A stretch of DNA of 20,870 nucleotides from a virus (Duplodnaviria; Heunggongvirae; Uroviricota; Caudoviricetes): positions 1-20,870 of the IMG/VR virus record IMGVR_UViG_2896595138_000005; one strand, 5' to 3'. Made by a program: the position numbers and the translations under genes. Positions 1 through 17,138 of the stretch are shown here, piece after piece. Numbering within the stretch: position 1 is the stretch's first letter; every line of letters begins with the position of its first letter. A model generated the notes under the pieces. It had not been told where the DNA came from. It worked only from the letters and a program-made list of their open reading frames with translations, and searched no databases.

Positions 1-819
1 ATGTGTCAGGTATTTGGTGTATCCAGGAGCGGTTATTACAACCGGGTACAGCATGAACCCTCAGACAGAAAACAAAGTGATGAGCGGCTAAAACTGGAGA
101 TTAAGGTGGCACATATCCGCACTCGCGAAACATATGGAACCCGGCGGCTCCAGACGGAGCTGGCAGAGAATGGCATCATCGTTGGTCGTGACCGACTGGC
201 ACGTCTTCGTAAGGAGCTAAGGCTACGCTGTAAGCAGAAACGCAAGTTCAGAGCGACTACGAACCCGAACCACAATCTGCCAGTTGCGCCAAATCTGCTG
301 AACCAGACGTTCGCTCCTACAGCACCAAATCAGGTCTGGGTGGCGGACCTGACGTATGTTGCCACACAGGAGGGATGGTTGTACCTCGCTGGCATCAAAG
401 ATGTTTATACGTGCGAAATTGTCGGCTACGCCATGGGAGAGCGCATGACAAAAGAGCTGACAGGTAAAGCCCTGTTTATGGCGCTCAGGAGCCAGCGCCC
501 ACCTGCCGGGCTAATCCACCACTCTGATCGAGGTTCACAGTACTGCGCATACGATTACCGGGTCATACAGGAGCAGTTTGGTCTGAAAACATCAATGTCG
601 CGTAAAGGTAACTGTTACGACAACGCTCCGATGGAAAGCTTCTGGGGAACGCTGAAAAATGAGAGCCTGAGCCACTATCGTTTTAATAACCGGGATGAAG
701 CCATCTCAGTAATACGGGAATACATTGAGATTTTCTACAATCGTCAGCGTCGTCACTCTCGTCTGGGGAATATCTCCCCGGCAGCCTTCAGGGAAAAATA
801 TCATCAGATGGCTGCTTAA
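1..819 (+). CDS. IS3-family transposase OrfB (DDE integrase catalytic domain)
   Basis: 272-aa ORF with recognisable IS3 OrfB features ([24 protein letters not shown]); same protein as 17139..17957. Confidence 0.85.
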   Translation: MCQVFGVSRSGYYNRVQHEPSDRKQSDERLKLEIKVAHIRTRETYGTRRLQTELAENGIIVGRDRLARLRKELRLRCKQKRKFRATTNPNHNLPVAPNLLNQTFAPTAPNQVWVADLTYVATQEGWLYLAGIKDVYTCEIVGYAMGERMTKELTGKALFMALRSQRPPAGLIHHSDRGSQYCAYDYRVIQEQFGLKTSMSRKGNCYDNAPMESFWGTLKNESLSHYRFNNRDEAISVIREYIEIFYNRQRRHSRLGNISPAAFREKYHQMAA

Positions 820-862
820 AAAAAGAACAAATGGTAGTGTCCGCTATTGCCAGTACACCTCA
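1..862 (+). mobile_element. IS3-family insertion sequence (IS600-like), partial right-hand copy; window begins inside the element
   Basis: 1..862 matches 17139..18000 of the complete copy base for base where compared; the two diverge immediately after ...CCAGTACACCTCA. Confidence 0.85.
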
Positions 863-2594: not shown

Positions 2595-2715
2595 AGCTTT
2601 TCTCCTGTTTTTGTATACAGCCTGTTTACCCGAACAGGTTGTAGTTTGTTGGGAGAACCGCTATCCTTGGCTTGCGGTTGCCAAGGGTGTAGCGGTAGGT
2701 AATCCTCCATACACT

Positions 2716-2740
2716 TCGGAAATACTGGATATATTTCCGA
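2716..2740. promoter_or_regulatory. perfect 9-bp inverted repeat, candidate operator or hairpin
   Basis: TCGGAAATA-N7-TATTTCCGA, between the terminator of the 177-aa gene and the 44-aa ORF. Confidence 0.35.
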
Positions 2741-2768
2741 CCCAAAAAGCCCCGTTCCCTCGGGCTTT
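2741..2768 (-). terminator. rho-independent terminator after the 177-aa gene
   Basis: Minus-strand AGCCCGAGGGAACGGGGCT stem-loop followed by TTTTT, starting at the TAA stop codon. Confidence 0.5.
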
Positions 2769-3300: not shown

Positions 3301-3575
3301 AAAAAAGCCTCATACAGTTGATGAGGCAATACTAATTTGATCGTCAAAACAAATCAAGACCCAAGAAACGATCGTTGATTCCTTTCTTTGTGACAATACA
3401 GTCAAATCAAGTTTTACAAGGATTACTTTTCTTCGATTACATTAAAGGCCGCACTTCTGCGACCATCCATCACCAAAATGTCTCTTCACTCATCCGAAGA
3501 AGCAGCAATCCGGGTCAGCACGCACAAGCTCAAGCGCATCAGTCAGCGAAAGTTCAGTACTGTACTGATGCCATT

Positions 3576-3830
3576 TCATATCCTTCCGCATCCAATAGAT
3601 TTTCCATCTATCCAGAGAACGTATGTACTTGATTCTTGCTGATGGCAGGATGTTTGTTTCACCTGGGTTGCCCTGCCACACGGGCGCTGTTCGCCGATAT
3701 CTATCGTTTGGTCATTGATGCTATAAACAATATCCAGTTCATTGCGGATATGTTCAGGCGGCCTTATGCTTTCAATGAATTGGTGAACTTCTTTTTTGAC
3801 CGCTTGATATTCAAGGTCAGTGAACGCCAT
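3576..3830 (-). CDS. hypothetical protein (84 aa) co-transcribed with cI
   Basis: GAGGAGG RBS 5 nt upstream of the ATG; starts 37 nt after the cI stop on the same strand; no recognisable family. Confidence 0.55.
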   Translation of the reverse strand: MAFTDLEYQAVKKEVHQFIESIRPPEHIRNELDIVYSINDQTIDIGEQRPCGRATQVKQTSCHQQESSTYVLWIDGKSIGCGRI

Positions 3831-3867
3831 CTATCCTCCTCACCCAAACGTTTCTTCAGGCCACTGG

Positions 3868-4575
3868 TTACCAGCTATGCGATGACCAGAATACTCTGCC
3901 AATAATCCTTACGGTTTTATGAAATTCATCTCTATCCATTACTTCATCCGGGTACTCTTCGCGATTTATTGATCTGATTATCACCGATGTAGGAGTGGCG
4001 ATTAATGTTTTTACTCGCAACAAATCAGACTGGCAAATAGCGTAGGTTTTACCATCTCTGATGGTGGTATCTTGTGTGTTAACACCAACAACATCGCCAT
4101 CGTGAAGAGTTGGTTCCATGCTTTGACCTGTTACCCTTACCAGCTTGGCAGAACTTTCAGTTACCCCCATCTTTTTCAGATAGTACTTTCTGAAAACCAA
4201 AGAGAACTCTGATGATTCTTCTATCTCGCAGCTACCGCTTCCAGCCGAAAGCGAAACGTTAAGAAGAGGCAATGCGACAAACTCGTCATCGTTTTTTTTA
4301 ATGTCTTCCCATACCACAGCTTTTAAAGATGACTCACGGATATTGGATGGTTCTTCATGTGTACCATCCCTCATTTCACCAATACCAGAACTAAGCCATT
4401 CAGGGCGTACTTTTAAAGCATTAGCTAACTCAACCATCTTGCGAGATCCGTTTGTTTTACCGGATGACATCTTCTGTATGGCTGGCTGAGATATTCCAAC
4501 CATGTCCGCAAGCTGTGATTGCGACACCCCTGCCGATCTCATGGCTGCATTTAGTCTTTCTGCGAATGTTTTCAT
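3868..4575 (-). CDS. cI: CI-type prophage repressor (N-terminal HTH, C-terminal S24 LexA-like autopeptidase domain)
   Basis: HTH-like segment QSQLADMVGISQPAIQKM and a C-terminal S24-like region (VTGQSMEPTLHDGDVV, LRVKTL). Start placed at MKTFAERL (4575) rather than the first in-frame ATG (4605) because an operator site lies between them. Confidence 0.8.
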   Translation of the reverse strand: MKTFAERLNAAMRSAGVSQSQLADMVGISQPAIQKMSSGKTNGSRKMVELANALKVRPEWLSSGIGEMRDGTHEEPSNIRESSLKAVVWEDIKKNDDEFVALPLLNVSLSAGSGSCEIEESSEFSLVFRKYYLKKMGVTESSAKLVRVTGQSMEPTLHDGDVVGVNTQDTTIRDGKTYAICQSDLLRVKTLIATPTSVIIRSINREEYPDEVMDRDEFHKTVRIIGRVFWSSHSW

Positions 4576-4587
4576 ATCCACAAATCT

Positions 4588-4662
4588 ATAACTACGGTTA
4601 TCCAAAGTAAAATAATAAAGGTTATTGCTATCTTTTATAACTTGGGTTATCCTTGGTTATAA
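4588..4662. promoter_or_regulatory. OR operator cluster with divergent pRM/pR
   Basis: ATAACTACGGTTAT (4588..4601), ATAAAGGTTAT (4615..4625), ATAACTTGGGTTAT (4637..4650) and GGTTATAA (4655..4662), between the divergent cI and cro starts. Confidence 0.6.
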
Positions 4663-4686
4663 GCAATGGCTGAAAGAGGTATGCTC

Positions 4687-4911
4687 ATGAATTTAGTAAT
4701 TCAACGAGCCTTGAAGATTGTCGGTAGTCAAAAGCGGCTTGCCGACAAGTGTGGTGTAACGCAGCCAGCAGTACACAAATGGCTGAAAGGCGGGCAGGTT
4801 TCTCCAGAGAAAGTTACCGCCATCGTTAACGCCACTGGAGGGCAGATCAAGGCTTACGAAATTCGCCCAGATTTACCACACCTGTTTCCAAAACCGAATC
4901 AGGCAGCATAA
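4687..4911 (+). CDS. cro: Cro-like HTH repressor
   Basis: Small HTH protein (KRLADKCGVTQPAVHKWLKG) divergent from cI; AGAGGT RBS favours the ATG at 4687 over the ORF-track start at 4666. Confidence 0.7.
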   Translation: MNLVIQRALKIVGSQKRLADKCGVTQPAVHKWLKGGQVSPEKVTAIVNATGGQIKAYEIRPDLPHLFPKPNQAA

Positions 4912-4949
4912 GTAACACCGCTATTTTCACAATGGGCATTCGTCCTACG

Positions 4950-4964
4950 TCGCTGACAAAGCGA
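4950..4964 (+). promoter_or_regulatory. nutR boxB-like hairpin
   Basis: TCGCTGACAAAGCGA, same GACAA pentaloop as nutL, between cro and cII; a boxA-like CGCTATTTTCACAA lies about 25 nt upstream. Confidence 0.5.
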
Positions 4965-5049
4965 GCCCCAAGATATCTGACCAACTAAGGCCATATGCGT
5001 TTCCATGCATACCTTTCAACTAACTATTCACTATTGGAAATCTTAAGAA

Positions 5050-5349
5050 ATGGAACAAACAAGTTACAGCAAACTATCACAGCGCGACGTTGATCGCGCA
5101 GAAACAGATTTACTTATCAACCTGTCAACGCTTACACAGCGCGGTCTGGCAAAGATGATTGGCTGCCATGAATCGAAGATCAGTCGTACCGACTGGCGGT
5201 TTATTGCTTCGGTCTTGTGTGCTTTCGGAATGGCATCAGACATCAGTCCGATTAGCAGGGCTTTTAAGTATGCGCTTGATGGACTCACCAATAAAAAACG
5301 CCCGGTGTGCAAAACCGAGCGTTCTGAACAAATCCAGATGGAATTTTAA
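5050..5349 (+). CDS. cII: CII-like transcriptional activator
   Basis: 99-aa HTH protein (TQRGLAKMIGCHESKISR) in the canonical position after cro and nutR. Confidence 0.65.
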   Translation: MEQTSYSKLSQRDVDRAETDLLINLSTLTQRGLAKMIGCHESKISRTDWRFIASVLCAFGMASDISPISRAFKYALDGLTNKKRPVCKTERSEQIQMEF

Positions 5350-5371
5350 CAACATCCAACGAGGTAATTAT

Positions 5372-5643
5372 ATGCGAAACAAAGGCTTTAATCCACCTGA
5401 TACACACAAAGAAGCTAAGCGTTTGCGCTTCCTTCGTTCCATTGATGAAAGAACTCAAATCTCTTTTGTGAAAGTTGCCAGAACTGAGCTTCTGAAAGCT
5501 GAGGCGAGGGCGTTGCTCCCGCCTCTACCAAAAGAGGAGGGATATACGTTCATTCCAAACGCATTTCTGGAAAAGCTGCTCAAAGAAGACATATCCGTAA
5601 GTCAGTTTAACGATGTTCTTAAGGTCTTTCGTCAAGGCAGGTA
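5372..5643 (+). CDS. hypothetical protein between cII and the replication genes
   Basis: 90 aa from an internal ATG with a GAGG RBS, inside the longer ORF-track frame 5159..5644. Confidence 0.4.
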
Positions 5644-5646
5644 GTG

Positions 5647-6531
5647 ATGAGCAATACAGCAAAAATCTACGATTTCAGCGCCGCACACGAGCGCAGGAGC
5701 AACAGGATGGAGAACCAGAAAACTGGTTACATTCCGTTGTACCGGAGCATTCTGAAACAGTCATGGGCGAAAGATGTTTATCTTCGCACCCTGTGGGAAA
5801 ACCTTCTCCTGAATGCTGCCAGAAAGCCATACAAAGCGAATTTCAAAGGTCATGAATGGCATGTGCAACCCGGTCAACTGGTTGTGACAGCAGCTGATTT
5901 AGGTCTTCAGTTATGCGACAGGCATGGCAAGCCAGCAAGCCGTGATCAGGTTGAGCGGATGCTTCAGGTTTTTGTGAAAGAGGGGATGATCTCCATTGAT
6001 GGAGAGAAGCAAAAAGGTCGTGTGATCACCATCACAAATTACCATGAATATGCTCAAAAAATGGACAATTCACCCGCACATGAAGCCGCACAAACAACCG
6101 CACATCATGAACAAGAAGGTATTAACAAGAATATAAATAATATCTCTAATACTGACGTATTAGAGAGTGCCACAGCAGACAAAAAGTCTGACAAGAAAAA
6201 ACCTTCCGTTAGCTGTCAGGATGTTGTCGATGCTTACCACGAAATCCTTCCTGAAGCGCCAAGAATCCGCGCACTGAATGACAAGCGTAAAAACCAGATC
6301 CGAACGTTCTGGCGCAAAGCCGGAGTGATAACCCGCCAGCTTGACGGGCATGGGTTCACGATGCAGGACTGGAGAAATTATTTGAGCTACGTAGGCGAAA
6401 ATTGCCGATGGATGTTCGAAGAGCGCCCAAACCATCAGCGCGGAACCGTCTGGCACAAAAAGGGATTTGATTACCTGCTTAACGATAATACCTACCTGAA
6501 AGTTCGTGAGGGTGAACACGATGACCGATAA
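5647..6531 (+). CDS. phage replication initiation protein (O-like)
   Basis: 294 aa in the O position, ending 11 nt inside the start of the helicase gene; assignment is by position and general resemblance. Confidence 0.6.
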   Translation: MSNTAKIYDFSAAHERRSNRMENQKTGYIPLYRSILKQSWAKDVYLRTLWENLLLNAARKPYKANFKGHEWHVQPGQLVVTAADLGLQLCDRHGKPASRDQVERMLQVFVKEGMISIDGEKQKGRVITITNYHEYAQKMDNSPAHEAAQTTAHHEQEGINKNINNISNTDVLESATADKKSDKKKPSVSCQDVVDAYHEILPEAPRIRALNDKRKNQIRTFWRKAGVITRQLDGHGFTMQDWRNYLSYVGENCRWMFEERPNHQRGTVWHKKGFDYLLNDNTYLKVREGEHDDR

Positions 6532-7957
6532 TTTTTATGCGCCGCCCCATAGCATCGAGGCAGAGCAGGCGGTGATTGGTGGATTGCTTCTGGATGATGA
6601 CAGCAGTGAGCGCGTCCAGAAGGTTCTTGCGATGCTGAAGCCTGACTCATTTTACAGCCGGCCACACAAAATCCTTTTCGAAGAAATAACCAGAATGCAC
6701 CGGGAGCAAAAGCCAGTAGATGGCCTGACGCTTTTCGATGAACTGGAGCGTAAATCGTTAACGGCGTCTGTTGGCGGTTTTGCTTATATCGCTGAGATCG
6801 CAAAGAACACGCCAAGCGCCGCAAACATCGTTGCCTATGCAATGCAGGTTCGCGAAACCGCAATGGAACGCTACGCCATCAACCGCATGACTGAAGCGAC
6901 GGAATTGCTCTATTCCCGCAACGGAATGACTGCAACGCAGAAGTACGAAGCTATTCAGGCGATTTTCACGCAACTGACAGACCATGCAAAAACCGGATCA
7001 CGTCGCGGCCTTCGCTCATTTGGTGAGGTCATGGAAGACTGGGTTAGCGACCTTGAGAAGCGTTTTGACCCGTCAGGCGAACAACGAGGAATGAGCACAG
7101 GGATCCCATCGCTGGACAGGATGCTGTCACCGAAAGGTCTGGTGAAAGGCTCTCTGTTTGTCATTGGCGCTCGCCCTAAGATGGGGAAAACGACGCTATA
7201 CAGCCAGATGGCAATCAACTGCGCAGTGCATGAGAAAAAGCCCGCTCTGATGTTCAGCCTTGAAATGCCAGGTGATCAGATACTGGAAAAACTGGTAGGG
7301 CAGAAGTCTGGTGTTAACCCGAATATTTTTTACCTTCCGGCGACAAATGACGCCGATGACGGCTATCAGGGTGATTACGATGGTGACTTCAACAGGGCGA
7401 TCGAAACAGCCAATCGCTTGAGTGAAATCGACCTGCTTTACATCGACGACACGCCGGGATTATCTCTGGCTCAAATCGTCAGCGAAAGCCGTCGAATCAA
7501 GCGAGAAAAAGGATGTGTTGGCATGATTCTGGTCGATTACCTGACACTAATGACCGCTGAAAAGGCCGATCGCAACGACCTTGCCTACGGCATGATCACC
7601 AAAGGACTGAAGAACCTTGCCAAAGAGCTTGATTGCGTTGTTGTGCTTCTGACGCAGCTTAACCGCGCACTGGAAAGCCGAACCAATAAACGCCCATTAC
7701 CAAGTGACTCACGAGATACAGGGCAGATTGAACAGGATTGCGATTATTGGGTGGGGATCCATCGTGAAGGTGCTTTTGATGACAGTGTTCCACCTGGTGA
7801 AACCGAACTAATCCTTCGTCTCAATCGTCATGGCAATACCGGCACGGTGTATTGCATTCAGGCAAATGGAGCTATTTATGACACAGACCAACAGTCTGCT
7901 GAAATGCGCCGCCGTGAACGCGAGGAACCGCAGTCCAAGAAGAAAGGAGGATTCTGA
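6521..7957 (+). CDS. replicative DNA helicase, DnaB family (P-equivalent)
   Basis: DnaB N-terminal signature PPHSIEAEQAVIGGLLLD and Walker A GARPKMGKT; GAGGGTG RBS before the ATG at 6521. Confidence 0.85.
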   Translation: MTDNFYAPPHSIEAEQAVIGGLLLDDDSSERVQKVLAMLKPDSFYSRPHKILFEEITRMHREQKPVDGLTLFDELERKSLTASVGGFAYIAEIAKNTPSAANIVAYAMQVRETAMERYAINRMTEATELLYSRNGMTATQKYEAIQAIFTQLTDHAKTGSRRGLRSFGEVMEDWVSDLEKRFDPSGEQRGMSTGIPSLDRMLSPKGLVKGSLFVIGARPKMGKTTLYSQMAINCAVHEKKPALMFSLEMPGDQILEKLVGQKSGVNPNIFYLPATNDADDGYQGDYDGDFNRAIETANRLSEIDLLYIDDTPGLSLAQIVSESRRIKREKGCVGMILVDYLTLMTAEKADRNDLAYGMITKGLKNLAKELDCVVVLLTQLNRALESRTNKRPLPSDSRDTGQIEQDCDYWVGIHREGAFDDSVPPGETELILRLNRHGNTGTVYCIQANGAIYDTDQQSAEMRRREREEPQSKKKGGF

Positions 7958-7985
7958 TGACCATCTACATCACTGAGCTAATAAC

Positions 7986-8017
7986 AGGCCTGCTGGTAAT
8001 CGCAGGCCTTTTTATTT
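7986..8017 (+). terminator. rho-independent terminator (tR2-like) between helicase and ninB
   Basis: AGGCCTGC-loop-GCAGGCCT stem followed by TTTTTATTT. Confidence 0.6.
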
Positions 8018-8032
8018 GGGGAGAGGGAAGTC

Positions 8033-8473
8033 ATGAAAAAACTAACCTTTGAAATTCGATCTCCAGCACATCAGCAAAACGCTATTCACGCGGTACAGCA
8101 AATTCTTCCAGACCCAACCAAACCAATCGTAGTAACCATTCAGGAACGCAACCGCAGCTTAGACCAGAATCGAAAGCTTTGGGCTTGCCTTGGTGACGTC
8201 TCTCGTCAGGTTGAATGGCATGGTCGCTGGCTGGATGCAGAAAGCTGGAAGTGTGTGTTTACCGCGGCATTAAAGCAGCAGGACGTTGTTCCTAACCTTG
8301 CCGGGAATGGCTTTGTGGTAATAGGCCAGTCAACCAGCAGGATGCGTGTAAGCGAATTTGCGGAGTTATTAGAGCTTATACAGGCATTCGGTACAGAGCG
8401 TGGCGTTAAGTGGTCAGACGAAGCGCGACTGGCTCTGGAGTGGAAAGCGCGATGGGGAGATCGGGCTGCATGA
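8033..8473 (+). CDS. ninB: NinB recombination protein
   Basis: 146 aa with the characteristic N-terminus [21 protein letters not shown] and [10 protein letters not shown]. Confidence 0.8.
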
Positions 8474-9159
8474 CTATCAAATCAAATACGCCAGCACACG
8501 ACAAGGACTGCTGGCAAACGCCACTTTGGCTTTTTGATGCGCTGGATATTGAGTTTGGATTCTGGCTGGATTCGGCAGCGAGCGACAAAAATGCTCTGTG
8601 CGCTCACTGGCTAACTGAGGCCGACGACGCGCTCAATTCTGAGTGGGTAAGCCACAGTGCAATCTGGAATAACCCACCGTACAGCAATATCAGGCCGTGG
8701 GTGGAAAAAGCCGCTGAGCAGTGTATACAACAGCGACAGACGGTAGTTATGCTTGTGCCAGAGGATATGTCAGTCGGATGGTTCAGCAAGGCTCTGGAGA
8801 GTGTTGACGAAGTTCGCATCATCACTGATGGACGGATTAATTTTATCGAACCATCGACAGGGCTGGAGAAAAAGGGAAACAGTAAAGGCTCAATGCTGCT
8901 GATTTGGCGACCGTTCATCAGTCCCCGGCGAATGTTTACTACCGTATCCAAAGCGGCATTGATGGCGATCGGGCAGGGCGGCATGAGGCGACAGCGACGA
9001 AGTATTACCGACATAATCTGTGAAAACTGCAAATACCTTCCAACGAAACGCTCCAGAAATAAACGCAAGCCAATCCCAAAAGAATCTGACGTAAAAACCT
9101 TCAACTACACGGCTCACCTGTGGGATATCCGGTGGCTAAGACATCGTGCGAGGAAATGA
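8470..9159 (+). CDS. phage DNA N6-adenine methyltransferase (Dam type) with C-terminal basic extension
   Basis: NPPY catalytic motif; ATG at 8470 overlaps the ninB stop (ATGA); last ~60 residues are basic and not typical of the family. Confidence 0.7.
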
Positions 9160-9200
9160 CTATTTATCCGGTGCGCCGCCAGAATGACGGCGCGGTGTGG

Positions 9201-9509
9201 TTAAACGAAGCGGATCTGGAGTTTTTTTCCAGTAGCGCGGGCGAATTTTTTTAGTGTGGCAAATGATGGGCCGCTGATACCTGATGCGAGATTACTTTCC
9301 ATTCTGGTGATCGCGGTCGCTTTTGTTCCCATTCGCTCGGCAACTTCAGCCTGAGTTAAGCCAGCTTCTTTGCGTGCTGCCAGCATTTCATCAAGCAGTG
9401 CGAATTCGTCAGCGATAGCGTCGTATTCTGCTTTAAAAGCCGGGTCTTCCATCCATTTGGCTGCCATTTCGTCGTGTGTCATGGTGGGGAGAGTGCGTTT
9501 ACCAGTCAT
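9201..9509 (-). CDS. HigA-like HTH antitoxin (XRE family)
   Basis: HTH segment LTQAEVAERMGTKATAITRME; sits downstream of and overlaps the toxin gene. Confidence 0.7.
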   Translation of the reverse strand: MTGKRTLPTMTHDEMAAKWMEDPAFKAEYDAIADEFALLDEMLAARKEAGLTQAEVAERMGTKATAITRMESNLASGISGPSFATLKKFARATGKKLQIRFV

Positions 9510-9828
9510 GCTTAACCTCCTTCATTCTGGTTTCAGCTTTCTTGCGTTCGGCTGGCGGTGTTTTCTGCGTTTTCTTTACAAAACTATGCAGCATGATGAT
9601 GCGTTTCCCTGTCAGAGTGCAGTAAAAAACACGCGCGATCCCATCGTTGCCTTTAATTCTGAGTTCGAAAAGTCCGTCACCAAAGGCGCTGGTGTGAGGT
9701 TCTCCGAGATTGCTGCCATATATCTTCATACGTTCAACGAGATGTTGGTATCGGGCACGCATACTCAATGGAAGCCGATCGACTTCCAGCCTTACATCTT
9801 CACTGTAGTATTCGATAGTGTAGTTCAT
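9499..9828 (-). CDS. HigB/RelE-ParE family toxin (Gp49-like)
   Basis: Conserved C-terminal pattern LHSFVKKTQKTPPAERKKAETRMKE; start uncertain, the frame opens at 9918. Confidence 0.65.
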   Translation of the reverse strand: MNYTIEYYSEDVRLEVDRLPLSMRARYQHLVERMKIYGSNLGEPHTSAFGDGLFELRIKGNDGIARVFYCTLTGKRIIMLHSFVKKTQKTPPAERKKAETRMKEVKHDW

Positions 9829-9949
9829 AGGTATCAACATAACAAAATCGTTATATGCATTCAAGGCCTGTAGTTGACGACAACACATATCCGGGCTATA
9901 TTCCTCATACGCCAGCAAAATCTGGCGTCGGGATTGAGACCCCGGATGT

Positions 9950-10420
9950 TTACGGAGCGATATGAGACGCGCCCGCGTCTTTTTTCATATCGTTTGCACA
10001 GTCACATTCGCGATTTATGGTGGGCTGTGTGGGGGAGCCGAAACCGATAACCATTTCTTTGTTGAAGAGACAAAGCGAGCAGGCCAGTCCGATCGCGGTC
10101 CAACTGAGCCCCATTTCACGGGATTTTTCGGTAATACCATTCTCCCGATTGCTCCAGCGTTCCATAATCCAGTGGATCCACTCCTCCTGCTTAGGGAAGA
10201 GTAAAAACGGAATGGTCACCGGCAGGCCATAATCAATATTACGCGGGTCCGTTGTCATGCCCCAGCCGATAATGAACTGAGCCGGGTTGGTACGGTAAAA
10301 CTGTTTTAGTGCAGGCAATATTTCAGGATTCTGGCGAATGCGCTGTAGGCGTTCCATCCGCCATTCAAAAACCATCTGGTAATCAGGATGTTTAAAATCG
10401 AAGGGGAATGGTAACGGCAT
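9950..10420 (-). pseudogene. terminase large subunit, N-terminal fragment only
   Basis: Directly follows terS; only 156 codons where several hundred are expected; no portal, head or tail genes follow. Confidence 0.6.
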
Positions 10421-10422
10421 AC

Positions 10423-10977
10423 TTAGCCCATCATTTTTCTATACACCTCTGCGGCCTGCTCAGGCGTTAATTTGGTAATTTCTGTTCTGACTGGTCCTCC
10501 GTCAGCGCCAGTCACTTCATTTTTGACGTTGTCTTTAAACGCCTGAACAGAAACATGACGCCCAAGCAACTCAAGGTTTTTAACCTTATCAGGCCATTTG
10601 ATTTTCTTCAGAAGTGCGGCGCTATCTGCGGATACCATCTCCACGACATCCATTCCTGATAGCGTTGTGCGCCATACCTTAGGCCAGTCTTTAATGGGCT
10701 TTAGCTCACCGTTTTGCAGGAGAATGTCGAGCACATCCATCTGGTCGATTTCAACCAATCTACGAAGAACATAGGCGGCATCTATACCCGTCTGCTCAAC
10801 GCGGGCGGATTTAAGTTCAGCAACGAATTTTTGAACATTAACATTTGCTAATAATCGAGATGCCTGCTCATTGGCGGTCTTCTCGCTGTAGCCCGCCCTG
10901 ATAGCTGCCTGTGTGCCGTTCAGATCTTTCAGGTACTCACGGGCAAACAGCTCTTGTTTGTCGGTGAGCTTTGCCAT
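10423..10977 (-). CDS. terminase small subunit (P27 family)
   Basis: N-terminus [35 protein letters not shown] is the family signature. Confidence 0.8.
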
Positions 10978-11078
10978 TATTTGTGCTCCGTTTATCCGTT
11001 AAAAGGGATATCAGTTAAGTTATCCCGTGTAGGGTATAAGCCATTATCAAGCCCACCAGTAGATGGGCTTTGTAATGG

Positions 11079-11336
11079 CTACTTCGCTTTTGCTTCCGCT
11101 CGCTTACGCCGGCGCTCTTCTTTCCTCTCGGCTTTTGCCATGTCCATGAATGTCTGCATGATCGAGTTCCGCATCATGTAGCTAACAAAGTGATGATTGA
11201 CACAGCCGTTGAGGCGCAGCTGCTCGCCAAACTCATCCACCGAGGCCAATGCTTCCATCATGCCCTTCTCGCCTTTCATGAACTCTGAGAAGTCGCGCCC
11301 CGCTCTGGAGGCGCATTCAATGACACGATCACTCAT
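11079..11336 (-). CDS. hypothetical protein with basic C-terminal tail
   Basis: 85 aa ending KAERKEERRRKRAEAKAK; start overlaps the stop of the KilA-N gene (ATGA). Confidence 0.45.
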   Translation of the reverse strand: MSDRVIECASRAGRDFSEFMKGEKGMMEALASVDEFGEQLRLNGCVNHHFVSYMMRNSIMQTFMDMAKAERKEERRRKRAEAKAK

Positions 11337-11830
11337 CCCGGAAGCCCGGGGATCGTTATCTGCAGCTGGTTAGCCAGGGAGTTAATCTCAGCGACCAACA
11401 CTGGCTTCGTATAGCGCCATGCCGCCAGCCCTTGTCCACAGAAGCTCGCCATATCTTTTTTCTGATCAAACTCATGACACTTCATATTGAGCTGCGCACT
11501 TAAGCTGTTGCGATGCTGAAGTTCTCCGGTGAAGTAGTCATCCAGGACTTTATAGGCTGCATATTTAAATCCGGGGTTTAGCCATGCTGCATAATCATAA
11601 GCAACAAACTTCCCGCCATATGTTCCACCGTGTACACCGCGCTCAGTAAAAACCACAGATTCGTGGTTTTTCTCCAGCTCGGCTAAGAACTCTTTGGTCT
11701 GCTTGTTTCGCAGGTAGTGGTACGGAGATTCAGATTCACTTTTACCACTGGCTTTCCACATATCAGTGAGGCAGATCATTCCTGATTCATCAACACGGAT
11801 CGGTGTATTAAAAAGCGTGATTGCTTTCAT
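11333..11830 (-). CDS. KilA-N domain protein
   Basis: N-terminal KilA-N-like segment (ITLFNTPIRVDESGMICLTDMWKASGK). Confidence 0.6.
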   Translation of the reverse strand: MKAITLFNTPIRVDESGMICLTDMWKASGKSESESPYHYLRNKQTKEFLAELEKNHESVVFTERGVHGGTYGGKFVAYDYAAWLNPGFKYAAYKVLDDYFTGELQHRNSLSAQLNMKCHEFDQKKDMASFCGQGLAAWRYTKPVLVAEINSLANQLQITIPGLPG

Positions 11831-11977
11831 GGCGTCTTTACCTTTTAGAAAGATGAGCCTGTTCGCACAGAAAAGCCGTCCCCGAGATGGTCGCCACCAT
11901 ATACGGCAATTCTCAGGCTCAGCTTTCTGAAAGACTCGGGGTTTATATGCGCTGCGATGCGCGGTTTACTGCGGACA

Positions 11978-12003
11978 TATAAAAGCCCCGCAAGTGCGAG
12001 GCT
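11978..12003 (-). terminator. candidate rho-independent terminator after Rz
   Basis: GC-rich imperfect stem (AGCCTCGCA / TGCGGGGCT) followed by TTTTAT on the minus strand. Confidence 0.35.
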
Positions 12004-12035
12004 CATTAAATGGACTTTGTGATTTGCAAAAAAAT

Positions 12036-12503
12036 TTATTTCAGGCACTGAGTCCTGATGTACTCCTGAAGCATTCTCAATGCTGTCTGGTCGCTGATGA
12101 TTCCGTCCCGGATACCGAGAACGTTTCGTCCAGCAACTGGAGAGAGTTCGACGGTGGCATCATTGCCCATGCCGGAGGCGCTGGAGGTTTCGGCTGAGGA
12201 TGGCACAGGGCATTTTCCTTTGACGAGCACCCGACCACCATTATCAAGCTTGCGCCGAAGAGCATCATTTTCAGCTTTCGCATTGGCTAACTCCTTCGTG
12301 TATTTAGCATCGAGTGCATCAGCAGCACGCTGGCGCTGCTGCATGTCAGTAATGGTTGCGTTCGCCAGCTTCAGTTCTCTTGCGTTTTTGTCGCGCTGCT
12401 CTTTGTAGGTAATGGCGTTATCACGGTAATGATTAACAGCCCATGACAGGCGGACGATGATGCAGATAACCAGAGCGGAGATAATCGCGGTGACTCTGCT
12501 CAT
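12036..12503 (-). CDS. Rz: Rz i-spanin
   Basis: N-terminus [17 protein letters not shown] with a transmembrane segment, then an [19 protein letters not shown] region. Confidence 0.75.
12077..12283 (-). CDS. Rz1: Rz1 o-spanin lipoprotein, embedded in Rz in another frame
   Basis: Lipobox VVGC after a signal peptide, then a proline-rich segment (PKPPAPPAW). Confidence 0.7.
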
Positions 12504-12996
12504 TGCTGCCCCACAAACAGACTTCACGCTCAATCTCACGACGGGTCATCAGCCCTTTCCATTGCTTACCGCCAGCATATGTCCAGCGACGTAGCTGGTC
12601 ACATGCGCCTTTGATATCGCCCTGGTTTATTTTGCGAAGAAGCGTCGATGTTCTGAAATTGCCAGCGCCCACGTTGTAAACGAACGAGTAAAGAGCGCCG
12701 CGCGTTGTTTCCGGTATATCGACTTTGATGTACGGGTTAATTTGTCTGGCGACAGTGGCAAGGTCTTTATTCAGGAGAGCTTTGCATTCTGCTTCGGTAT
12801 ACGTTTTACCAGGCATGATGTCTTTTCCGGTGTGTCCGTGACATACAGTCCATACACCAATGATATCTTTGTATGGTATGTAGCTGACACCTTCCAGACC
12901 ATCGTTACCACCTGGGCCAGTGATTAACACAGATGCTATAGCAACAGCCCCGCCACCAATAGCAACTGCAACAGCCTTGCGTAATGATGGCGACAT
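12433..12996 (-). CDS. R: SAR endolysin (phage 21 R-type lysozyme)
   Basis: N-terminal Gly/Ala-rich signal-anchor ([20 protein letters not shown]); start overlaps the holin stop (ATGA); 3' end overlaps the Rz start by about 70 bp. Confidence 0.8.
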
Positions 12997-13211
12997 TATT
13001 CACCTCTCGCAGCCTTACGCTTGTCTTCTCTTAATTTGAAATACAGATTCGTCAGATAAGTCAGAAGCCCCAGAAGCAGACTTCCCAGCACACCAATCGC
13101 AGCCCACTGTGATGGACTGACCTGATCCAACCACTGCAAAAACCAGTAGCCGGCACTGCCGGCGGAGGTGCCGTAGGCAATGCCCGTTGAAATTTTGTCC
13201 ATGGATTTCAT
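12996..13211 (-). CDS. S: class II holin (phage 21 S-type pinholin)
   Basis: Dual-start MKSMDK motif and two transmembrane segments; start at 13211 inside the longer ORF-track frame. Confidence 0.75.
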
Positions 13212-13327
13212 AGCCTCACCTCCGCAAATAACGGATGGCGTAGTTCTTATATTGGGAAGGGAAAAAAAAGGCCGCAGCGTAACTGTCACTGATGAATTCA
13301 GGATAGCCAGTGGCTACGGCTCAGTTA

Positions 13328-13403
13328 TGGTGCTGGTTAACGGACTTGAACCGCTACCCATTCGCTTACAAGGCGACTGCTCTACCATTAGAGCTAAACC
13401 AGC
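13328..13403 (-). tRNA. tRNA-like gene, anticodon UGU (Thr) by hand folding
   Basis: 76 nt with 7-bp acceptor stem, GCTC/GAGC D-stem, CTTGTAA anticodon loop, TTCAAGT T-loop and encoded CCA. Confidence 0.5.
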
Positions 13404-13408
13404 ATATT

Positions 13409-13483
13409 TGGCGGGACAGCGTGGACTCGAACCACGATAAGAAGGTTAACAGCCTTCCGTAATGACCTTTATACGACTGACCC
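13409..13483 (-). tRNA. tRNA-like gene, anticodon GUU (Asn) by hand folding
   Basis: 75 nt with perfect GAAGG/CCTTC anticodon stem, CTGTTAA loop, CGTGG-TTCGAGT-CCACG T-arm and encoded CCA; one mismatch each in acceptor and D stems. Confidence 0.45.
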
Positions 13484-13672
13484 AAATAAAAAATCCCGAA
13501 AGCAGGCTCTATTCCTATGTGCTCTCGAGTTTATGATGCGCATGTCAGTGCGCTTAGCGAAAAACGCCGTAAACCCTCGCCCGACAGGGCGGGGAGCAGT
13601 CACAACTTAAAGATGAGGTGGGTAAAAAACCGAAAGAATGTGAACGGATATAAACCTGCCATTCTTGAGTCA

Positions 13673-13701
13673 AATTTACCCAACTTTATTCAAAAAGTCA
13701 A
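13673..13701 (-). promoter_or_regulatory. late promoter pR' (lambda-like)
   Basis: Minus-strand TTGACT, 17-nt spacer, TAAATT, within TTGACTTTTTGAATAAAGTTGGGTAAATTTGACTCAA. Confidence 0.6.
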
Positions 13702-13743
13702 TATCATGCCGTTAAGATGTTGCCATCCATGGCAATCATGCCG

Positions 13744-14367
13744 CTAACGTGTGACCGCATTCAAAATGTTGTCTGCGATTGACTCTTCTTTGTGGCATTG
13801 CACCACCAGAGCGTCATACAGCGGCTTAACAGTGCGTGACCATGTGGGTTGGGTGAGGTTTGGGATTAGCATCGTTACAGCGCGATATGCTGCACTTGCT
13901 GGCATCCTTGAATAGCCGACACCTTTGCATCTTCCGCACTCTTTCTCGACAACTCTCCCCCACTGCTCTGTTTTGGCTATATCAACTGCCAGACCTGTTC
14001 CGTGGCAATCTCTGCATCTTGCGCCCGGCGTCGCGGCACTACGGCAATAATCCGCATAAGCGAATGTTGCGAGCACTTGCAGTACCTTTGCCTTAGTATT
14101 TCCTTCGAGCTTTGCCACACCACGGTATTTCCCCGATACCTTGTGTGCAAATTGCATCAGATAGTTGATAGCCTTTTGTTTGTCGTTCTGGCTGAGTTCA
14201 TGCTTACCGCAAAATGCAGCCATTCCGAATCCGGCTTGTGATTGCGCCATCCCCATAGCAGCCATCACATCAGTACCGGAAAGAGAGTCAGAAGCCGTAG
14301 CCCGTGGTGAGTCGCTCATCATCGGGCTTTTTAGCGAATGAAATTTAGCTACGCTTTCGAGTCTCAT
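13744..14367 (-). CDS. Q: late antiterminator Q (lambda Q type)
   Basis: 207 aa with a CxxC...CxxC zinc-binding motif (CRDCHGTG...CGRCKG); recalled as near-identical to lambda Q. Confidence 0.8.
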   Translation of the reverse strand: MRLESVAKFHSLKSPMMSDSPRATASDSLSGTDVMAAMGMAQSQAGFGMAAFCGKHELSQNDKQKAINYLMQFAHKVSGKYRGVAKLEGNTKAKVLQVLATFAYADYCRSAATPGARCRDCHGTGLAVDIAKTEQWGRVVEKECGRCKGVGYSRMPASAAYRAVTMLIPNLTQPTWSRTVKPLYDALVVQCHKEESIADNILNAVTR

Positions 14368-14552
14368 CGTCTTCCCCTCTTGCCCTGTTTGACCATCAGG
14401 ACGCCGTTAACTATTACGTGACGCTCGCCTTTGCTGTCTCGGTTGTACTTGAGCACTGTTCCTCTTGCGCAGGAAAGCATCCTCGCCACTTCGGTCTGAT
14501 TGCCTCGTGTCTGGATAAGAAGCTCTGGTATCGTTTGAATTGTGGCGTTCAT
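14364..14552 (-). CDS. ninH: NinH-like small DNA-binding protein
   Basis: Segment GNQTEVARMLSCARGTV resembles lambda NinH. Confidence 0.6.
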   Translation of the reverse strand: MNATIQTIPELLIQTRGNQTEVARMLSCARGTVLKYNRDSKGERHVIVNGVLMVKQGKRGRR

Positions 14553-14911
14553 ACGTTCTCCAGTTCGGTGATTTTTATTCCAAGCCTTCCGCCTGGTACT
14601 TTCACACCACGAATTACGCGAATGTCATCGAATTGCTCGTCGTCTTCCGCAAATCCGGCGTGGATAAGAGAGTCGAGTAGCCCCTTCAGGATGTTGTCGA
14701 GGTCGCGGCGGCGGGAGTCTGGAACGTCTGCGATGACTTTGATGCGGAGTCGTGCTTTGGTGAAAATATCTAACTTGAGTTGGCGGATGATTTGCTGAAC
14801 GTCTTTTCGGTATTTCTGGCCTTTATAGCTGATGTAGTATTGGCTTCCCCGTCTTCGCCAGTAGGTGTTCAGCGACGGTGGGTATGGAAGCACAAACTGA
14901 TATTCGTTCAT
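14549..14911 (-). CDS. rusA: RusA-family Holliday junction resolvase
   Basis: 120 aa with the RRRDLDN motif characteristic of RusA. Confidence 0.8.
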   Translation of the reverse strand: MNEYQFVLPYPPSLNTYWRRRGSQYYISYKGQKYRKDVQQIIRQLKLDIFTKARLRIKVIADVPDSRRRDLDNILKGLLDSLIHAGFAEDDEQFDDIRVIRGVKVPGGRLGIKITELENV

Positions 14912-15198
14912 GGCTTAATCTTCCCCTCCTTCAGCAGTATCGCCTGCGTCCTGATCACGCCTTCGAGGTGGTAAAGTCTGGCGTCTTTGTTGTCGAGGTT
15001 ATGGGTGCGTCGGTCGATTTCATCGTGACACGCGCTACAAGCCCATGCGCCGATCAGGTCGTCAGGCTTCATTCCCGTTCCGCAAATTCCAGCCATCCGG
15101 TAATGTGCCAGAACTGTAGTTTCAGGATTGCCATTGCATACGCCGTAAATACGTACCTGGCATTCTCTGCCGCGCGCTTCTTTGCGTAAGTTAGCCAT
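14908..15198 (-). CDS. YbcO-like protein (DUF1364)
   Basis: 96 aa, cysteine- and histidine-rich, immediately upstream of rusA as in DLP12. Confidence 0.55.
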   Translation of the reverse strand: MANLRKEARGRECQVRIYGVCNGNPETTVLAHYRMAGICGTGMKPDDLIGAWACSACHDEIDRRTHNLDNKDARLYHLEGVIRTQAILLKEGKIKP

Positions 15199-15926
15199 TA
15201 AGCAGCCTCCCCTGTTACTTTCAGCATTCCGTTATAGAGCAGCTTTCTGGTCAGCCACTGTTGGCCACGCCCGGTGATTTTTGTGGTGAACGATATCTGT
15301 ATTCCGTGATTTGTGTTGACTGCTGTTTCTTTCACTGTGAAATAGCCGCGATCCATATATTCCTGCATTGGCACATTGCGCCGGGAACCTGAAGCAATAA
15401 GGATTTTGTGATCGCGCATCCACGCAAACAGTTTGTTTGGACCAATTCCAACAACCTTTGCAAAGTTTCCAATCAAAATTCCGCTGGCCTCGCTAACGCG
15501 ATCGGCAAACTCAACTTTAGGTGCTGCGAGAGCAAGCTGTTTCTCCAGTTCAGCCTTCTGGTCTTCAAGGTCGGCCGCAAGGCGCAATGCCTCAGAAAAG
15601 GTTTGTGGGATTTTCGCGGTTGCCCCTTCAAGCTCTCGCCAACGGTCAACAAGACGAGCGGTGAATTCCGGCGACAACTGGGCAACGACAATAATGCTGT
15701 CGCGCTTACCTTGTTCGCCTTCGAAGACGTAATGCTCGTACTGAACATTGAACCCTAAGTTATTGATTCTTTCGGAAACCTCAAATTGAGGATGCCGGAT
15801 AACACCATTTTTAGCCAGCGTTTCGATGGTACGTTTCACATTGTCATGACGCTTACCCACCAACTCAGCGATTTCAATGCTGGTCATTTTGATGGCGTTG
15901 CTATTTATCAGCTCGTTCATTGTCAT
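15198..15926 (-). CDS. antirepressor (Rha-like N-terminus, KilAC-type C-terminus)
   Basis: N-terminal TSIEIAELVGKRHDNVKRTIETL; two-domain layout typical of phage Ant proteins. Confidence 0.65.
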   Translation of the reverse strand: MTMNELINSNAIKMTSIEIAELVGKRHDNVKRTIETLAKNGVIRHPQFEVSERINNLGFNVQYEHYVFEGEQGKRDSIIVVAQLSPEFTARLVDRWRELEGATAKIPQTFSEALRLAADLEDQKAELEKQLALAAPKVEFADRVSEASGILIGNFAKVVGIGPNKLFAWMRDHKILIASGSRRNVPMQEYMDRGYFTVKETAVNTNHGIQISFTTKITGRGQQWLTRKLLYNGMLKVTGEAA

Positions 15927-15951
15927 GTCCTCTCATATTGAAAATTCAGCA

Positions 15952-15975
15952 ATAAAAAACCCAGCCGAAGCTGGG
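15952..15975 (-). terminator. rho-independent terminator between the ORF6N gene and the antirepressor gene
   Basis: Minus-strand CCCAGC-TTCG-GCTGGG followed by TTTTTTATT. Confidence 0.55.
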
Positions 15976-15994
15976 TCGTTGCGTTGGCAATCTG

Positions 15995-16672
15995 TCAGTA
16001 GTGATGTAGTGAAGGAGGTAATTCTTTGTTCTTAAGTCTTACCCATGCAGAAAGATTCGTTGGTCCGTCTGGCTCATTAATATCAACATCTCGTGTGTGA
16101 TTGATTAAAACGTCTCTCGCCATTCCGATAACATACGAGAACTCATGACCGTAGTCGTGGCATCTGCCGGAATAGTTAGACTGAATTTGTCTTAGCGCCG
16201 GATACAGTTCGCGGAATAATGCCTGTGAGCGGTTGGCATAATCCCACAACCATACCAGACTGTTTGCATCTTTTGCAGAAAGCTCGCTGGTTTTCTTCTC
16301 GTGATGACCTGCGCTTTTCGAAGTCTGGCTGAAATAGCAGTCTTCCAGTTTTTCGAACACGTCCCATGCCTGATCGGTTTCGAGCATCTTCGCGTGACGG
16401 GCTGCGCCTCGTTCTGTCCAGAGGATGAGCGAGCGGGCATTTTTACCAACTAACCCGATTGTTTCGGGTCTGTTCTTAAACTCGCGTAATTCGTTTTTTT
16501 CAATTTTAAAGTAATGCTTTCCTACCACGAATCGCATCGTGTTGTTCAGAAAATTATCAGAAATGTTTTTGATTTTTGTTCCGTATAACTGCGCCAGAAG
16601 TTCAGTTGTAATAACGGGGATCTGGTTGTGGGTGATTGCAGGAAGAGTGTCGACAGAAATTTGAGTGAGCAT
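15995..16672 (-). CDS. ORF6N-domain phage protein
   Basis: Start assigned to MLTQ (GGAG RBS 8 nt upstream); the longer ORF-track frame runs into the IS; the IS left end lies about 65 bp upstream of the assigned start. Confidence 0.5.
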
Positions 16673-16800
16673 AACGATAACTCCGTACATTTGGTCATTA
16701 TCGCCACCTTCTGGTCTCAATAATCTGGTGGCGAGCTGAGGTAGCCTGAGTTTAACGGACACTCCTTCCTGAAATAGAATGGCATCAGAAGGAGCTAATA

Positions 16801-17103
16801 ATGAGCAGAAAAACCCAACGTTACTCTAAAGAGTTCAAAGCCGAAGCTGTCAGAACGGTTCTTGAAAATCAACTTTCGATCAGTGAAGGCGCTTCCCGAT
16901 TATCCCTTCCTGAAGGCACTTTAGGACAATGGGTTACCGCCGCCAGAAAAGAGCTCGGTACTCCTGGTTCCCGCACGGTGGCTGAACTGGAATCTGAAAT
17001 TCTGCAACTGCGTAAGGCGTTAAATGAAGCTCGCCTTGAGCGAGATATATTAAAAAAAGCAACAGCGTATTTTGCACAGGAGTCGCTGAAAAATACGCGT
17101 TAA
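16801..17103 (+). CDS. IS3-family transposase OrfA (HTH, leucine zipper)
   Basis: 100 aa; the A7G frameshift site lies near its 3' end. Confidence 0.85.
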
Positions 17104-17138
17104 TCGAACAATGGCGACAACAATTTCCCATTGAAGCG

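What the first reader, a model, noticed from the sequence alone, without database searches (positions are those of the whole stretch)
9160..9950. Convergent junction of the early block and an oppositely oriented late block
The early rightward operon ends at the Dam gene (9159) and meets head-on a minus-strand block ending in a truncated terL and a toxin-antitoxin pair. In an intact lambdoid phage these regions are co-linear on one strand. The region is therefore an inversion or a fusion of two prophages, and all morphogenesis genes are missing.
Basis: partly seen in the sequence, partly recalled or inferred. Interest (0 to 1): 0.55.

Follow-up and report, generated by a model that had tools for sequence, protein, structure and literature searches.

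The report
Flipped late block in decayed prophage
The flagged spot is the normal edge of a toxin-antitoxin cassette that complete phages also carry backwards; the real rearrangement lies about 90 bases further on, where a 6.7-kb piece of a decaying, insertion-sequence-riddled Shigella-type prophage was flipped, which is ordinary prophage decay.

Summary
NinE(+) facing a HigA/HigB-like pair(-) is the native layout of many un-inverted prophages and of deposited phage genomes (POCJ13, PhiR5_2), and the boundary is base-identical in them. Plus-strand collinearity continues through an IsrK sRNA gene (9909-9985) to 10043. The true junction is an 11-bp microhomology, GGGAGCCGAAA (10033-10043). It joins the orf45-like leader of an antirepressor gene to codon ~130 of terL. 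The 6.7-kb block 10044-16736 (terL' back to the antirepressor) is inverted, and its far end abuts IS600 (16737-18000). Only 41 bp of the parental sequence are missing. Both blocks match one E. coli prophage (RMDEC465) at 96-99%, so this is an inversion within one prophage, not a fusion of two. The identical junction occurs in 13 independent assemblies with different IS600 contexts, so it is old and real. Whether the 11-bp inverted repeats recombined directly, or IS600 copies inverted the block and a later deletion removed one copy, is unresolved. Low interest; already-known kinds of feature.

The parts
1..862 (+). IS600 copy 1 (3' part; the element starts before the window)
   Evidence: Identical to 17139-18000. 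OrfB has rve domains.
8470..9159 (+). Dam-NinE fusion ORF, last gene of the plus-strand run before the TA cassette
   Evidence: Pfam Dam plus NinE in one ORF. The two are separate genes in L003, L006 and L007; they are fused here by a frameshift.
9160..9200 (.). NinE/higA intergenic spacer with a 9-bp GC-rich hairpin; native, not a breakpoint
   Evidence: Fold z = -3.0 on the minus strand, no T-run. 9150-9215 is base-identical in un-inverted loci.
9201..9509 (-). HigA-like HTH antitoxin gene
   Evidence: Pfam HTH_3, E = 3e-11. Closest solved chain is HigA antitoxin 6AF3_B, E = 1e-3. Annotated HigA in PhiR5_2.
9499..9888 (-). HigB-like (Gp49, RelE/ParE superfamily) toxin gene; overlaps the antitoxin gene by 11 nt
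   Evidence: Pfam Gp49, E = 1.5e-25. Closest solved chain is HigB toxin 6AF3_A, E = 2e-5. RefSeq calls it a RelE/ParE family toxin.
9874..9902 (+). Promoter-like site upstream of isrK (TTGACG-17-TATATT)
   Evidence: 10 of 12 consensus matches. It sits just upstream of the Rfam IsrK 5' end at 9909. Consensus match only.
9909..9985 (+). IsrK sRNA gene homolog, ending in an intrinsic-terminator-like hairpin plus T-run (9964-9990)
   Evidence: Rfam RF01394, 70.6 bits against a gathering score of 50, full length 1-77. Terminator-like site. Fold.
10017..10043 (+). 5' remnant (first ~9 codons) of the orf45-like upstream ORF of the antirepressor
   Evidence: ATG at +109 from the IsrK 5' end. The frame continues into the antirepressor in L015. 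Anatomy as in Gifsy-1 (PMC4825925).
10033..10043 (.). Inversion junction: 11-bp microhomology GGGAGCCGAAA shared by both parental sequences
   Evidence: Three-way alignment. L003 12935-12945 and the reverse complement of L003 19680-19690. A 151-bp junction segment is 100% identical in other assemblies.
9950..10420 (-). Chimeric ORF: TerL residues 1-129 plus 27 unrelated residues read from the antisense of the orf45/isrK region
   Evidence: BLASTP against the 539-aa TerL of L003; identity stops after residue 129.
10044..16736 (-). Inverted 6.7-kb block. In transcription order: antirepressor, Ant, YbcO, RusA, NinH, Q, tRNA-Asn, tRNA-Thr, holin, lysozyme, Rz, KilA-N protein, 85-aa ORF, TerS, TerL'
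   Evidence: Reverse-order match to L003 12985-19690. Pfam. tRNAs.
15995..16672 (-). AnrP-like antirepressor (ORF6N + P22_AR_C), cut off from its isrK promoter and leader
   Evidence: Pfam. In un-inverted relatives its ATG lies at +241 of the isrK transcript. The identical protein sits next to the TA pair in L015 and L019.
16737..18000 (+). IS600 copy 2 (1264 bp). Its left end abuts the antirepressor leader at +177; its right end abuts mlrA codon ~77
   Evidence: 99.8-99.9% identical to elements annotated IS600. The 3-bp flanks differ, AGC against ATG, so it is a hybrid copy; mlrA match.

Best explanation
The window is a decayed lambdoid prophage in a Shigella-type chromosome (source record CP026845.1, probably S. 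boydii). The parental order, preserved in relatives, is: O, P, NinB, Dam, NinE on the plus strand; a HigB/HigA cassette on the minus strand; then isrK, an orf45-like leader, antirepressor, Ant, RusA, NinH, Q, lysis genes, TerS, TerL and head genes on the plus strand. So the convergence at 9160 is the native edge of an antisense toxin-antitoxin moron. The rearrangement is an inversion, within this one prophage, of the ~6.7-kb segment running from inside the orf45-like leader to codon ~130 of terL. Its left junction (10033-10043) formed at an 11-bp sequence that both parental sites carry natively in inverted orientation. Its right end is bounded by IS600, and 41 bp of the leader were lost. Shown consequences: terL is truncated; the antirepressor is severed from the isrK promoter; the IsrK-complementary part of the leader is deleted; the late genes now point at the early region. 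Inferred consequence: no packaging or head genes follow, so the element cannot produce particles. Mechanism (inferred, unresolved): I slightly favour IS600 first (about 45%). In that route an IS600 in the leader and a second, inverted IS600 downstream recombined and flipped the block. A deletion between the 11-bp repeats, direct after the flip, then removed the left IS600 plus the 41 bp. The alternative (about 35%) is direct illegitimate recombination between the native 11-bp inverted repeats, followed by IS600 insertion 41 bp from the reciprocal junction. In both routes, later exchanges between IS600 copies joined the block to mlrA and removed the rest of the phage.
For: Collinearity with the RMDEC465 prophage: window 7957-10043 forward at 98.8%; 10033-11077, 11826-14380 and 14529-16738 reversed at 95.8-99.4%. 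That prophage has a full TerL, portal and head genes. Base-level three-way alignment shows the 11-bp overlap and the 39-41 missing bp. The chimeric ORF is TerL 1-129. The same junction is found in 13 independent assemblies or read sets, including short-read contigs that span it. Un-inverted TA-isrK-antirepressor order with the identical antirepressor or toxin protein is seen in CP026836, QWSV01, CP061527, CP026878 and CP026782. The TA cassette is antisense inside the early regions of phages POCJ13 and PhiR5_2. IsrK hit and leader anatomy match Gifsy-1 (PMC4825925). IS600 identity. IS600 sits at the same site wherever that end survives (JARKNR01; contigs end there in AAVBZG01 and AAVFAP01). Non-matching IS600 flanks and the mlrA flank show later exchange between IS copies. 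GC skew flips sign between the blocks, and composition does not separate them.
Against: The reciprocal junction and the terL 3' part were not found, so the inversion is reconstructed from one junction plus an IS-bounded end. No intermediate state (IS600 in the leader without the terL' junction) was seen among the sampled contexts. The order of events therefore cannot be fixed. RMDEC465 is a mosaic relative, not the ancestor: window 11078-11825 and 14381-14528 do not match it. The organism name for CP026845.1 is inferred only from the adjacent accession CP026844.1, an S. boydii NCTC 9733 plasmid.
Confidence: 0.85

Rival explanations
1. One reading: the breakpoint is at about 9160, and the minus-strand block including the TA pair is one rearranged late block abutting the end of the early operon.
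For: Strand switch at 9159/9201.
Against: The boundary is base-identical in un-inverted prophages. There is forward collinearity to 10043 with RMDEC465 and to 10035 with phage phi315, which lacks the cassette. The TA cassette is antisense in complete phage genomes.
Confidence: 0.02
2. Fusion of two different prophages: illegitimate recombination between the orf45-like leader of one prophage and terL of a second, oppositely oriented prophage. That would be a chromosomal inversion with its endpoints in two phages.
For: Shigella-type genomes carry several related lambdoid remnants; for example CP026836 has the same TA-antirepressor module in another phage background. The chromosome around the locus is heavily rearranged.
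Against: The left block stops at +135 and the right block starts at +177 of the same leader, with no overlap and only 41 bp missing. That is expected for one phage cut once and is an unexplained coincidence for two phages. Both sides of the junction are 98.8-99.4% identical to a single prophage. Composition does not differ between the blocks.
Confidence: 0.07
3. A programmed invertible segment (a Hin/Gin/Cin-type switch), or a misassembly.
For: None beyond the inverted orientation itself.
Against: There are no inverted repeats of 30 bp or more in the window. No invertase gene lies in the block. All 13 assemblies have the same orientation, and independent short-read contigs span the junction. 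One end is an IS600 terminus.
Confidence: 0.01

Closest known systems
Defective lambdoid prophages eroded by insertion sequences (E. coli K-12 DLP12, Rac and Qin; IS-rich Shigella genomes). From my own knowledge.
   Same: Loss of morphogenesis genes, truncated terL, frameshifts in lysis and nin genes, IS copies at block boundaries with non-matching flanks.
   Different: Here one junction is not at an IS. It is an 11-bp microhomology between an antirepressor leader and terL.
Gifsy-1 isrK-orf45-anrP locus of Salmonella (PMC4825925)
   Same: IsrK homolog above the Rfam gathering score. Promoter-like and terminator-like sites. In un-inverted relatives, an upstream ORF starts at about +109 and the antirepressor ATG is at +241. 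The middle of IsrK is complementary to the 3' part of the leader.
   Different: In the window the unit is broken at +135. The complementary stretch (+136 to +176) is deleted, and the antirepressor lies 6.6 kb away, inverted, next to IS600. The upstream ORF is fused in frame to the antirepressor in this lineage. The antirepressor was not compared directly with AnrP.
HigBA-type type II toxin-antitoxin modules carried as phage morons (solved example 6AF3)
   Same: Gp49/RelE-fold toxin gene upstream of an HTH_3 antitoxin gene, with overlapping ORFs. It forms a cassette of ~720 bp with its own boundaries, found in different phage backgrounds.
   Different: Only distant sequence similarity to the solved pair (E = 2e-5 and 1e-3). 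Activity was not tested.
IS600 (IS3 family) rearrangements in Shigella
   Same: 1264-bp element, 99.8% identical. Hybrid copies join unrelated flanks. A further IS600-adjacent deletion is seen in CP026877.
   Different: A classical IS-by-IS inversion leaves an IS at both ends. Here only one end has one.

Membership tests
Type II toxin-antitoxin, HigBA-like (Gp49 toxin + HTH_3 antitoxin) | Toxin of the Gp49/RelE-ParE superfamily | tested here: met
   PF05973, E = 1.5e-25. HigB 6AF3_A, E = 2e-5.
Type II toxin-antitoxin, HigBA-like (Gp49 toxin + HTH_3 antitoxin) | Adjacent HTH antitoxin gene, with the toxin gene upstream (reversed order typical of HigBA) and the ORFs overlapping | tested here: met
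   PF01381, E = 3e-11. ORFs 9499-9888 and 9201-9509 overlap by 11 nt. HigA 6AF3_B, E = 1e-3.
Type II toxin-antitoxin, HigBA-like (Gp49 toxin + HTH_3 antitoxin) | Toxin arrests growth and the antitoxin neutralises it | not testable with these tools
   Needs expression assays.
IsrK sRNA (Rfam RF01394) / isrK-orf45-anrP unit | Covariance-model score above the gathering threshold over the full model | tested here: met
   70.6 bits against 50, model positions 1-77 of 77.
IsrK sRNA (Rfam RF01394) / isrK-orf45-anrP unit | Own promoter and intrinsic terminator | tested here: inconclusive
   Consensus-level promoter-like site 9874-9902 and terminator-like site 9964-9990. The region has no more such sites than its shuffles do. 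No expression data.
IsrK sRNA (Rfam RF01394) / isrK-orf45-anrP unit | Read-through leader with a small ORF coupled to a downstream antirepressor, and complementarity between IsrK and the leader | tested here: not met
   Met in the un-inverted relatives L003 and L015. In the window the leader is cut at +135, the segment +136 to +176 is missing, and the antirepressor is inverted at 15995-16672.
IS600 (IS3 family) | Near-identity over the full 1264 bp, with OrfA (HTH_Tnp_1) and OrfB (rve) | tested here: met
   99.8-99.9% over 1-1264 to elements annotated IS600. Pfam.
IS600 (IS3 family) | 3-bp target-site duplication flanking a simple insertion (IS600 property from my own knowledge) | tested here: not met
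   Flanks are AGC and ATG. The copy is therefore a recombinant between two insertions, not a simple insertion.
IS-mediated inversion (recombination between inverted IS copies, or replicative intramolecular transposition) | IS copies in inverted orientation at both ends of the inverted segment | tested here: not met
   Only the right end has IS600. The two copies in the window are direct, and no inverted repeats of 30 bp or more exist. This could still be an earlier step if the left copy was later deleted.
Site-specific invertible switch (Hin/Gin/Cin type) | Flanking inverted recombination sites, an invertase gene, and both orientations present in populations | tested here: not met
   No inverted repeats. 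No recombinase gene in the block. One orientation in 13 of 13 assemblies.
Intact lambdoid prophage | Full-length terL followed by portal, head and tail genes, collinear with Q and the lysis genes | tested here: not met
   TerL is truncated at residue 129. No structural genes lie in the window. They are present in the relatives L003 and L026.

The most novel reading that the evidence does not exclude
The two lesions inside the same ~135-nt antirepressor leader (the inversion junction at +135 and IS600 at +177) are not a coincidence. They reflect selection to silence an IsrK-orf45-antirepressor-to-Q induction and toxicity cascade. The HigBA cassette and an orphan IsrK sRNA were then kept for host benefit. 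Late transcription driven by Q, if any persists, would now read into higBA in the sense direction.
Probability: 0.1. Interest if true: 0.4.

Novelty: already known. Interest (0 to 1): 0.15.

Why it matters
It matters mainly as a correction. A strand switch next to a toxin-antitoxin pair in a phage nin region should not be read as a rearrangement, because these cassettes are natively antisense. Breakpoints have to be placed by alignment to relatives. The locus is a well-resolved example of how a Shigella-lineage prophage was disabled: terL cut, the antirepressor leader cut twice, IS600 shuffling. The junction could also serve as a lineage marker. It opens no new biological question by itself.

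Tried and rejected
(1) Exact-pattern scans for the predicted reciprocal junction (CCGGCGAGCC-TTTCGGCTCCC-GTAAAGAGG...) in genome contigs and metagenome contigs found nothing. A control scan for the observed junction also found nothing. Those collections therefore lack this lineage, and the negatives carry no information.

(2) A scan for an IS-first intermediate (leader +160 to +176 followed by the IS600 right end) in metagenome contigs found nothing.

(3) Two protein searches with TerL, full length and residues 131-539, looked for an N-truncated remainder. The only partial at 99% identity, P0024, is residues 1-452 cut by a contig end.

(4) Looking up all contexts of the exact toxin and antitoxin proteins showed no intermediate among the 20 places displayed.

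It has little power and was used only as supporting evidence.

(6) My first tally pattern for the junction also matched intact terL. I discarded it and redid the tally.

(7) An RNA duplex energy for IsrK against the missing 41 nt was only about 2 sd better than shuffles. I therefore rely on the explicit 10-of-11 base-pair register and on the Rfam hit.

(8) A literature search for the source accession numbers did not identify the strains.

Full report
**1. What is in the window.** The window is a lambdoid prophage remnant (863-16736). It lies between two directly repeated copies of a 1264-bp element, at 1-862 (partial) and 16737-18000. The element is 99.8-99.9% identical to elements annotated IS600 and encodes the usual OrfA and OrfB.
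- On the plus strand lie cro- and cII-like genes, O, a DnaB-type helicase (6506-7957), NinB and a Dam-NinE fusion ORF ending at 9159.
- On the minus strand follow an HTH antitoxin gene (9201-9509), a Gp49/HigB-like toxin gene (9499-9888), a 156-aa ORF (9950-10420), TerS, an 85-aa ORF, a KilA-N protein, Rz, lysozyme, holin, two tRNAs, Q, NinH, RusA, YbcO, Ant and an ORF6N/P22_AR antirepressor (15995-16672).

**2. The boundary at 9160 is native.**
- Phage phi315 is collinear on the plus strand with window 7957-9155 and again with 9888-10035. Its next genes match window 16674 down to 15191 in reverse.
- An E. coli prophage in strain RMDEC465 carries NinE(+), HTH(-) and toxin(-), followed on the plus strand by antirepressor, Ant, RusA, Q, tRNAs, lysis genes, TerS, a 539-aa TerL, portal and head genes. 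It matches window 7957-10043 forward at 98.8%.
- The 66 bp spanning the NinE/higA boundary are base-identical in many un-inverted loci.
- The ~720-bp TA cassette (about 9173-9887) also sits antisense inside the early regions of the deposited phage genomes POCJ13 and PhiR5_2.
- The exact antitoxin protein is listed in 4,960 index blocks of the public collection, and the sampled contexts are almost all un-inverted.
- The closest solved structures are the HigB and HigA chains of 6AF3.
- So the convergence at 9160 is the ordinary edge of an antisense moron.

**3. The real junction.**
- Against RMDEC465, window 7957-10043 aligns forward. Window 10033-11077, 11826-14380 and 14529-16738 align in reverse, at 95.8-99.4%.
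- The two homologies overlap in 11 bp, GGGAGCCGAAA (10033-10043). This sequence is present natively at both parental sites in inverted orientation, upstream of the antirepressor and in terL codons 126-130.
- The 156-aa ORF is TerL residues 1-129 followed by 27 unrelated residues.
- The other end of the inverted block abuts the left end of IS600 at 16736/16737. About 41 bp of parental sequence between the two ends are absent.

**4. What was cut.**
- Rfam finds a full-length IsrK sRNA homolog at 9909-9985 (+), scoring 70.6 bits against a gathering score of 50. A promoter-like site lies just upstream and a terminator-like hairpin forms its 3' end.
- In Salmonella Gifsy-1, partial read-through of the IsrK terminator gives an isrK-orf45-anrP mRNA. 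Translation of the antirepressor AnrP depends on orf45 and on pairing between IsrK and the 3' part of orf45 (PMC4825925).
- The un-inverted relatives here reproduce that anatomy. A small ORF starts at +109 and the antirepressor ATG is at +241. IsrK 22-32 is complementary to +161 to +171.
- The junction arm is +125 to +135, the missing 41 bp are +136 to +176, and IS600 abuts +177.
- In the window, therefore, the sRNA gene survives but its cis target is gone, and the antirepressor is detached, inverted and promoterless.

**5. One prophage, not two; real, not an artefact.**
- The two blocks are complementary parts of a single leader (+135 and +177), with no overlap. Both flank sequences at the junction are 98.8-99.4% identical to one prophage.
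- Composition does not separate the blocks, and GC skew flips sign as expected for an inverted block.
- The identical junction is present in 13 independent assemblies or read sets. These are CP026845 (the source), CP026846, CP026877, CP119446, JARKNR01, LPTQ01, AAVBZG01, ABFZOY01, AAVFAP01, AAABPQ01, SRR23531017, SRR8186642 and ERR200279.
- Their IS600 contexts differ. In CP026846 the order is mlrA, int, IS600, O', P, nin, TA, the junction, then terL' to holin, then IS600. In CP026877 an IS600 abuts terL' near window 10407.
- No inverted repeats of 30 bp or more and no invertase gene are present, which excludes a programmed switch.

**6. Mechanism.** This part is inferred. Two routes fit.
- Route A: illegitimate recombination between the native 11-bp inverted repeats flipped the segment. 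IS600 later landed 41 bp from the reciprocal junction. Exchanges between IS600 copies then removed the rest of terL and the structural genes.
- Route B: IS600 first inserted at +176/+177, and a second, inverted IS600 lay downstream. Recombination between the two flipped the block. A deletion between the 11-bp repeats, now in direct orientation, then removed the left IS600 plus the 41 bp.
- Route B explains the 41-bp proximity without a coincidence. It also fits a lineage in which IS600 exchanges are demonstrably frequent: copy 2 has non-matching flanks, AGC and ATG, and joins the phage to mlrA codon ~77. IS600 is at this site wherever that end survives.
- Route B needs more steps, however, and no intermediate was found.
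- The reciprocal junction was not found either, but the collections scanned lack this lineage altogether. TerL searches showed no N-truncated remainder.
- I put route B at about 45% and route A at about 35%.

**7. Consequences.**
- Shown: terL is truncated, and the late genes face the early region. Small frameshifts affect Dam/NinE and lysozyme.
- Inferred: the element cannot package DNA or form particles. The window holds no morphogenesis genes; whether any survive elsewhere in the genome could not be tested.

**8. Comparison and verdict.** All the components are known kinds: an IS-eroded lambdoid remnant, a HigBA-type moron, an IsrK locus and IS600. The specific junction may be undescribed, but it is an instance of ordinary prophage decay. 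The organism is probably Shigella boydii. That is inferred from the adjacent accession CP026844.1, an S. boydii NCTC 9733 plasmid. Interest is low.

Noticed in passing
window 9909-9985 (+): Full-length IsrK sRNA homolog (Rfam 70.6 bits). It lies between the toxin gene and the true breakpoint. Its cis target in the leader is deleted, so it is an orphan sRNA gene here.
   Followed up: yes
window 8470-9159 (+): Dam and NinE are fused into one ORF by a frameshift. The same fusion is seen in several other assemblies. They are separate, overlapping genes in L003, L006 and L007.
   Followed up: partly
window 12433-12996 (-): Lysozyme has a 3' frameshift (187 aa against 165 aa in L023) that extends it over the start of Rz. 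The Rz reading frame itself is intact.
   Followed up: partly
window 13328-13483 (-): tRNA-Thr(tgt) and tRNA-Asn(gtt) lie between Q and holin, as in RMDEC465.
   Followed up: partly
window 16737-19443: IS600 copy 2 has non-matching 3-bp flanks (AGC and ATG). Its right flank is mlrA (yehV) cut at about codon 77, followed by a phage integrase gene and an IS66-family element. The prophage attachment end is thus now joined through IS600 to the inverted late block.
   Followed up: partly
L009 and L014 (CP026845.1 flanks of the window): The chromosomal neighbours are, on one side, ycaL-cmk-rpsA-ihfB-ycaI (itself interrupted by IS600), and on the other, ycaM'-ycaN-ycaK-pflA-pflB-focA-ycaO. By my recollection of the K-12 map this is not the K-12 order. 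Gene names are inferred from Pfam domains and synteny.
   Followed up: no
L010 (CP026877.1) 498-1028: In this genome another IS600 left end abuts terL' about 13 bp after its start codon (window ~10407). TerS and everything beyond it are gone. This is a further IS600-adjacent deletion of the same remnant.
   Followed up: partly
L041 (CP026782.1) 3063-3926: A 287-aa antirepressor ORF. The size matches the orf45-anrP fusion that PMC4825925 mentions for S. dysenteriae. In L015 and in the window's lineage the small ORF is likewise in frame with the antirepressor.
   Followed up: no
window 3868-4605 (-) and 3490-3830 (-): The cI-like repressor is called as 189 aa here against 224-235 aa in relatives. 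The DUF3024 gene is split into 84 + 29 aa against 113 aa. Both look like further decay.
   Followed up: no
window 860-982 (-): A 40-aa Nmad5-domain ORF fragment is cut by the right end of IS600 copy 1. The early-left operon beyond N is missing.
   Followed up: no
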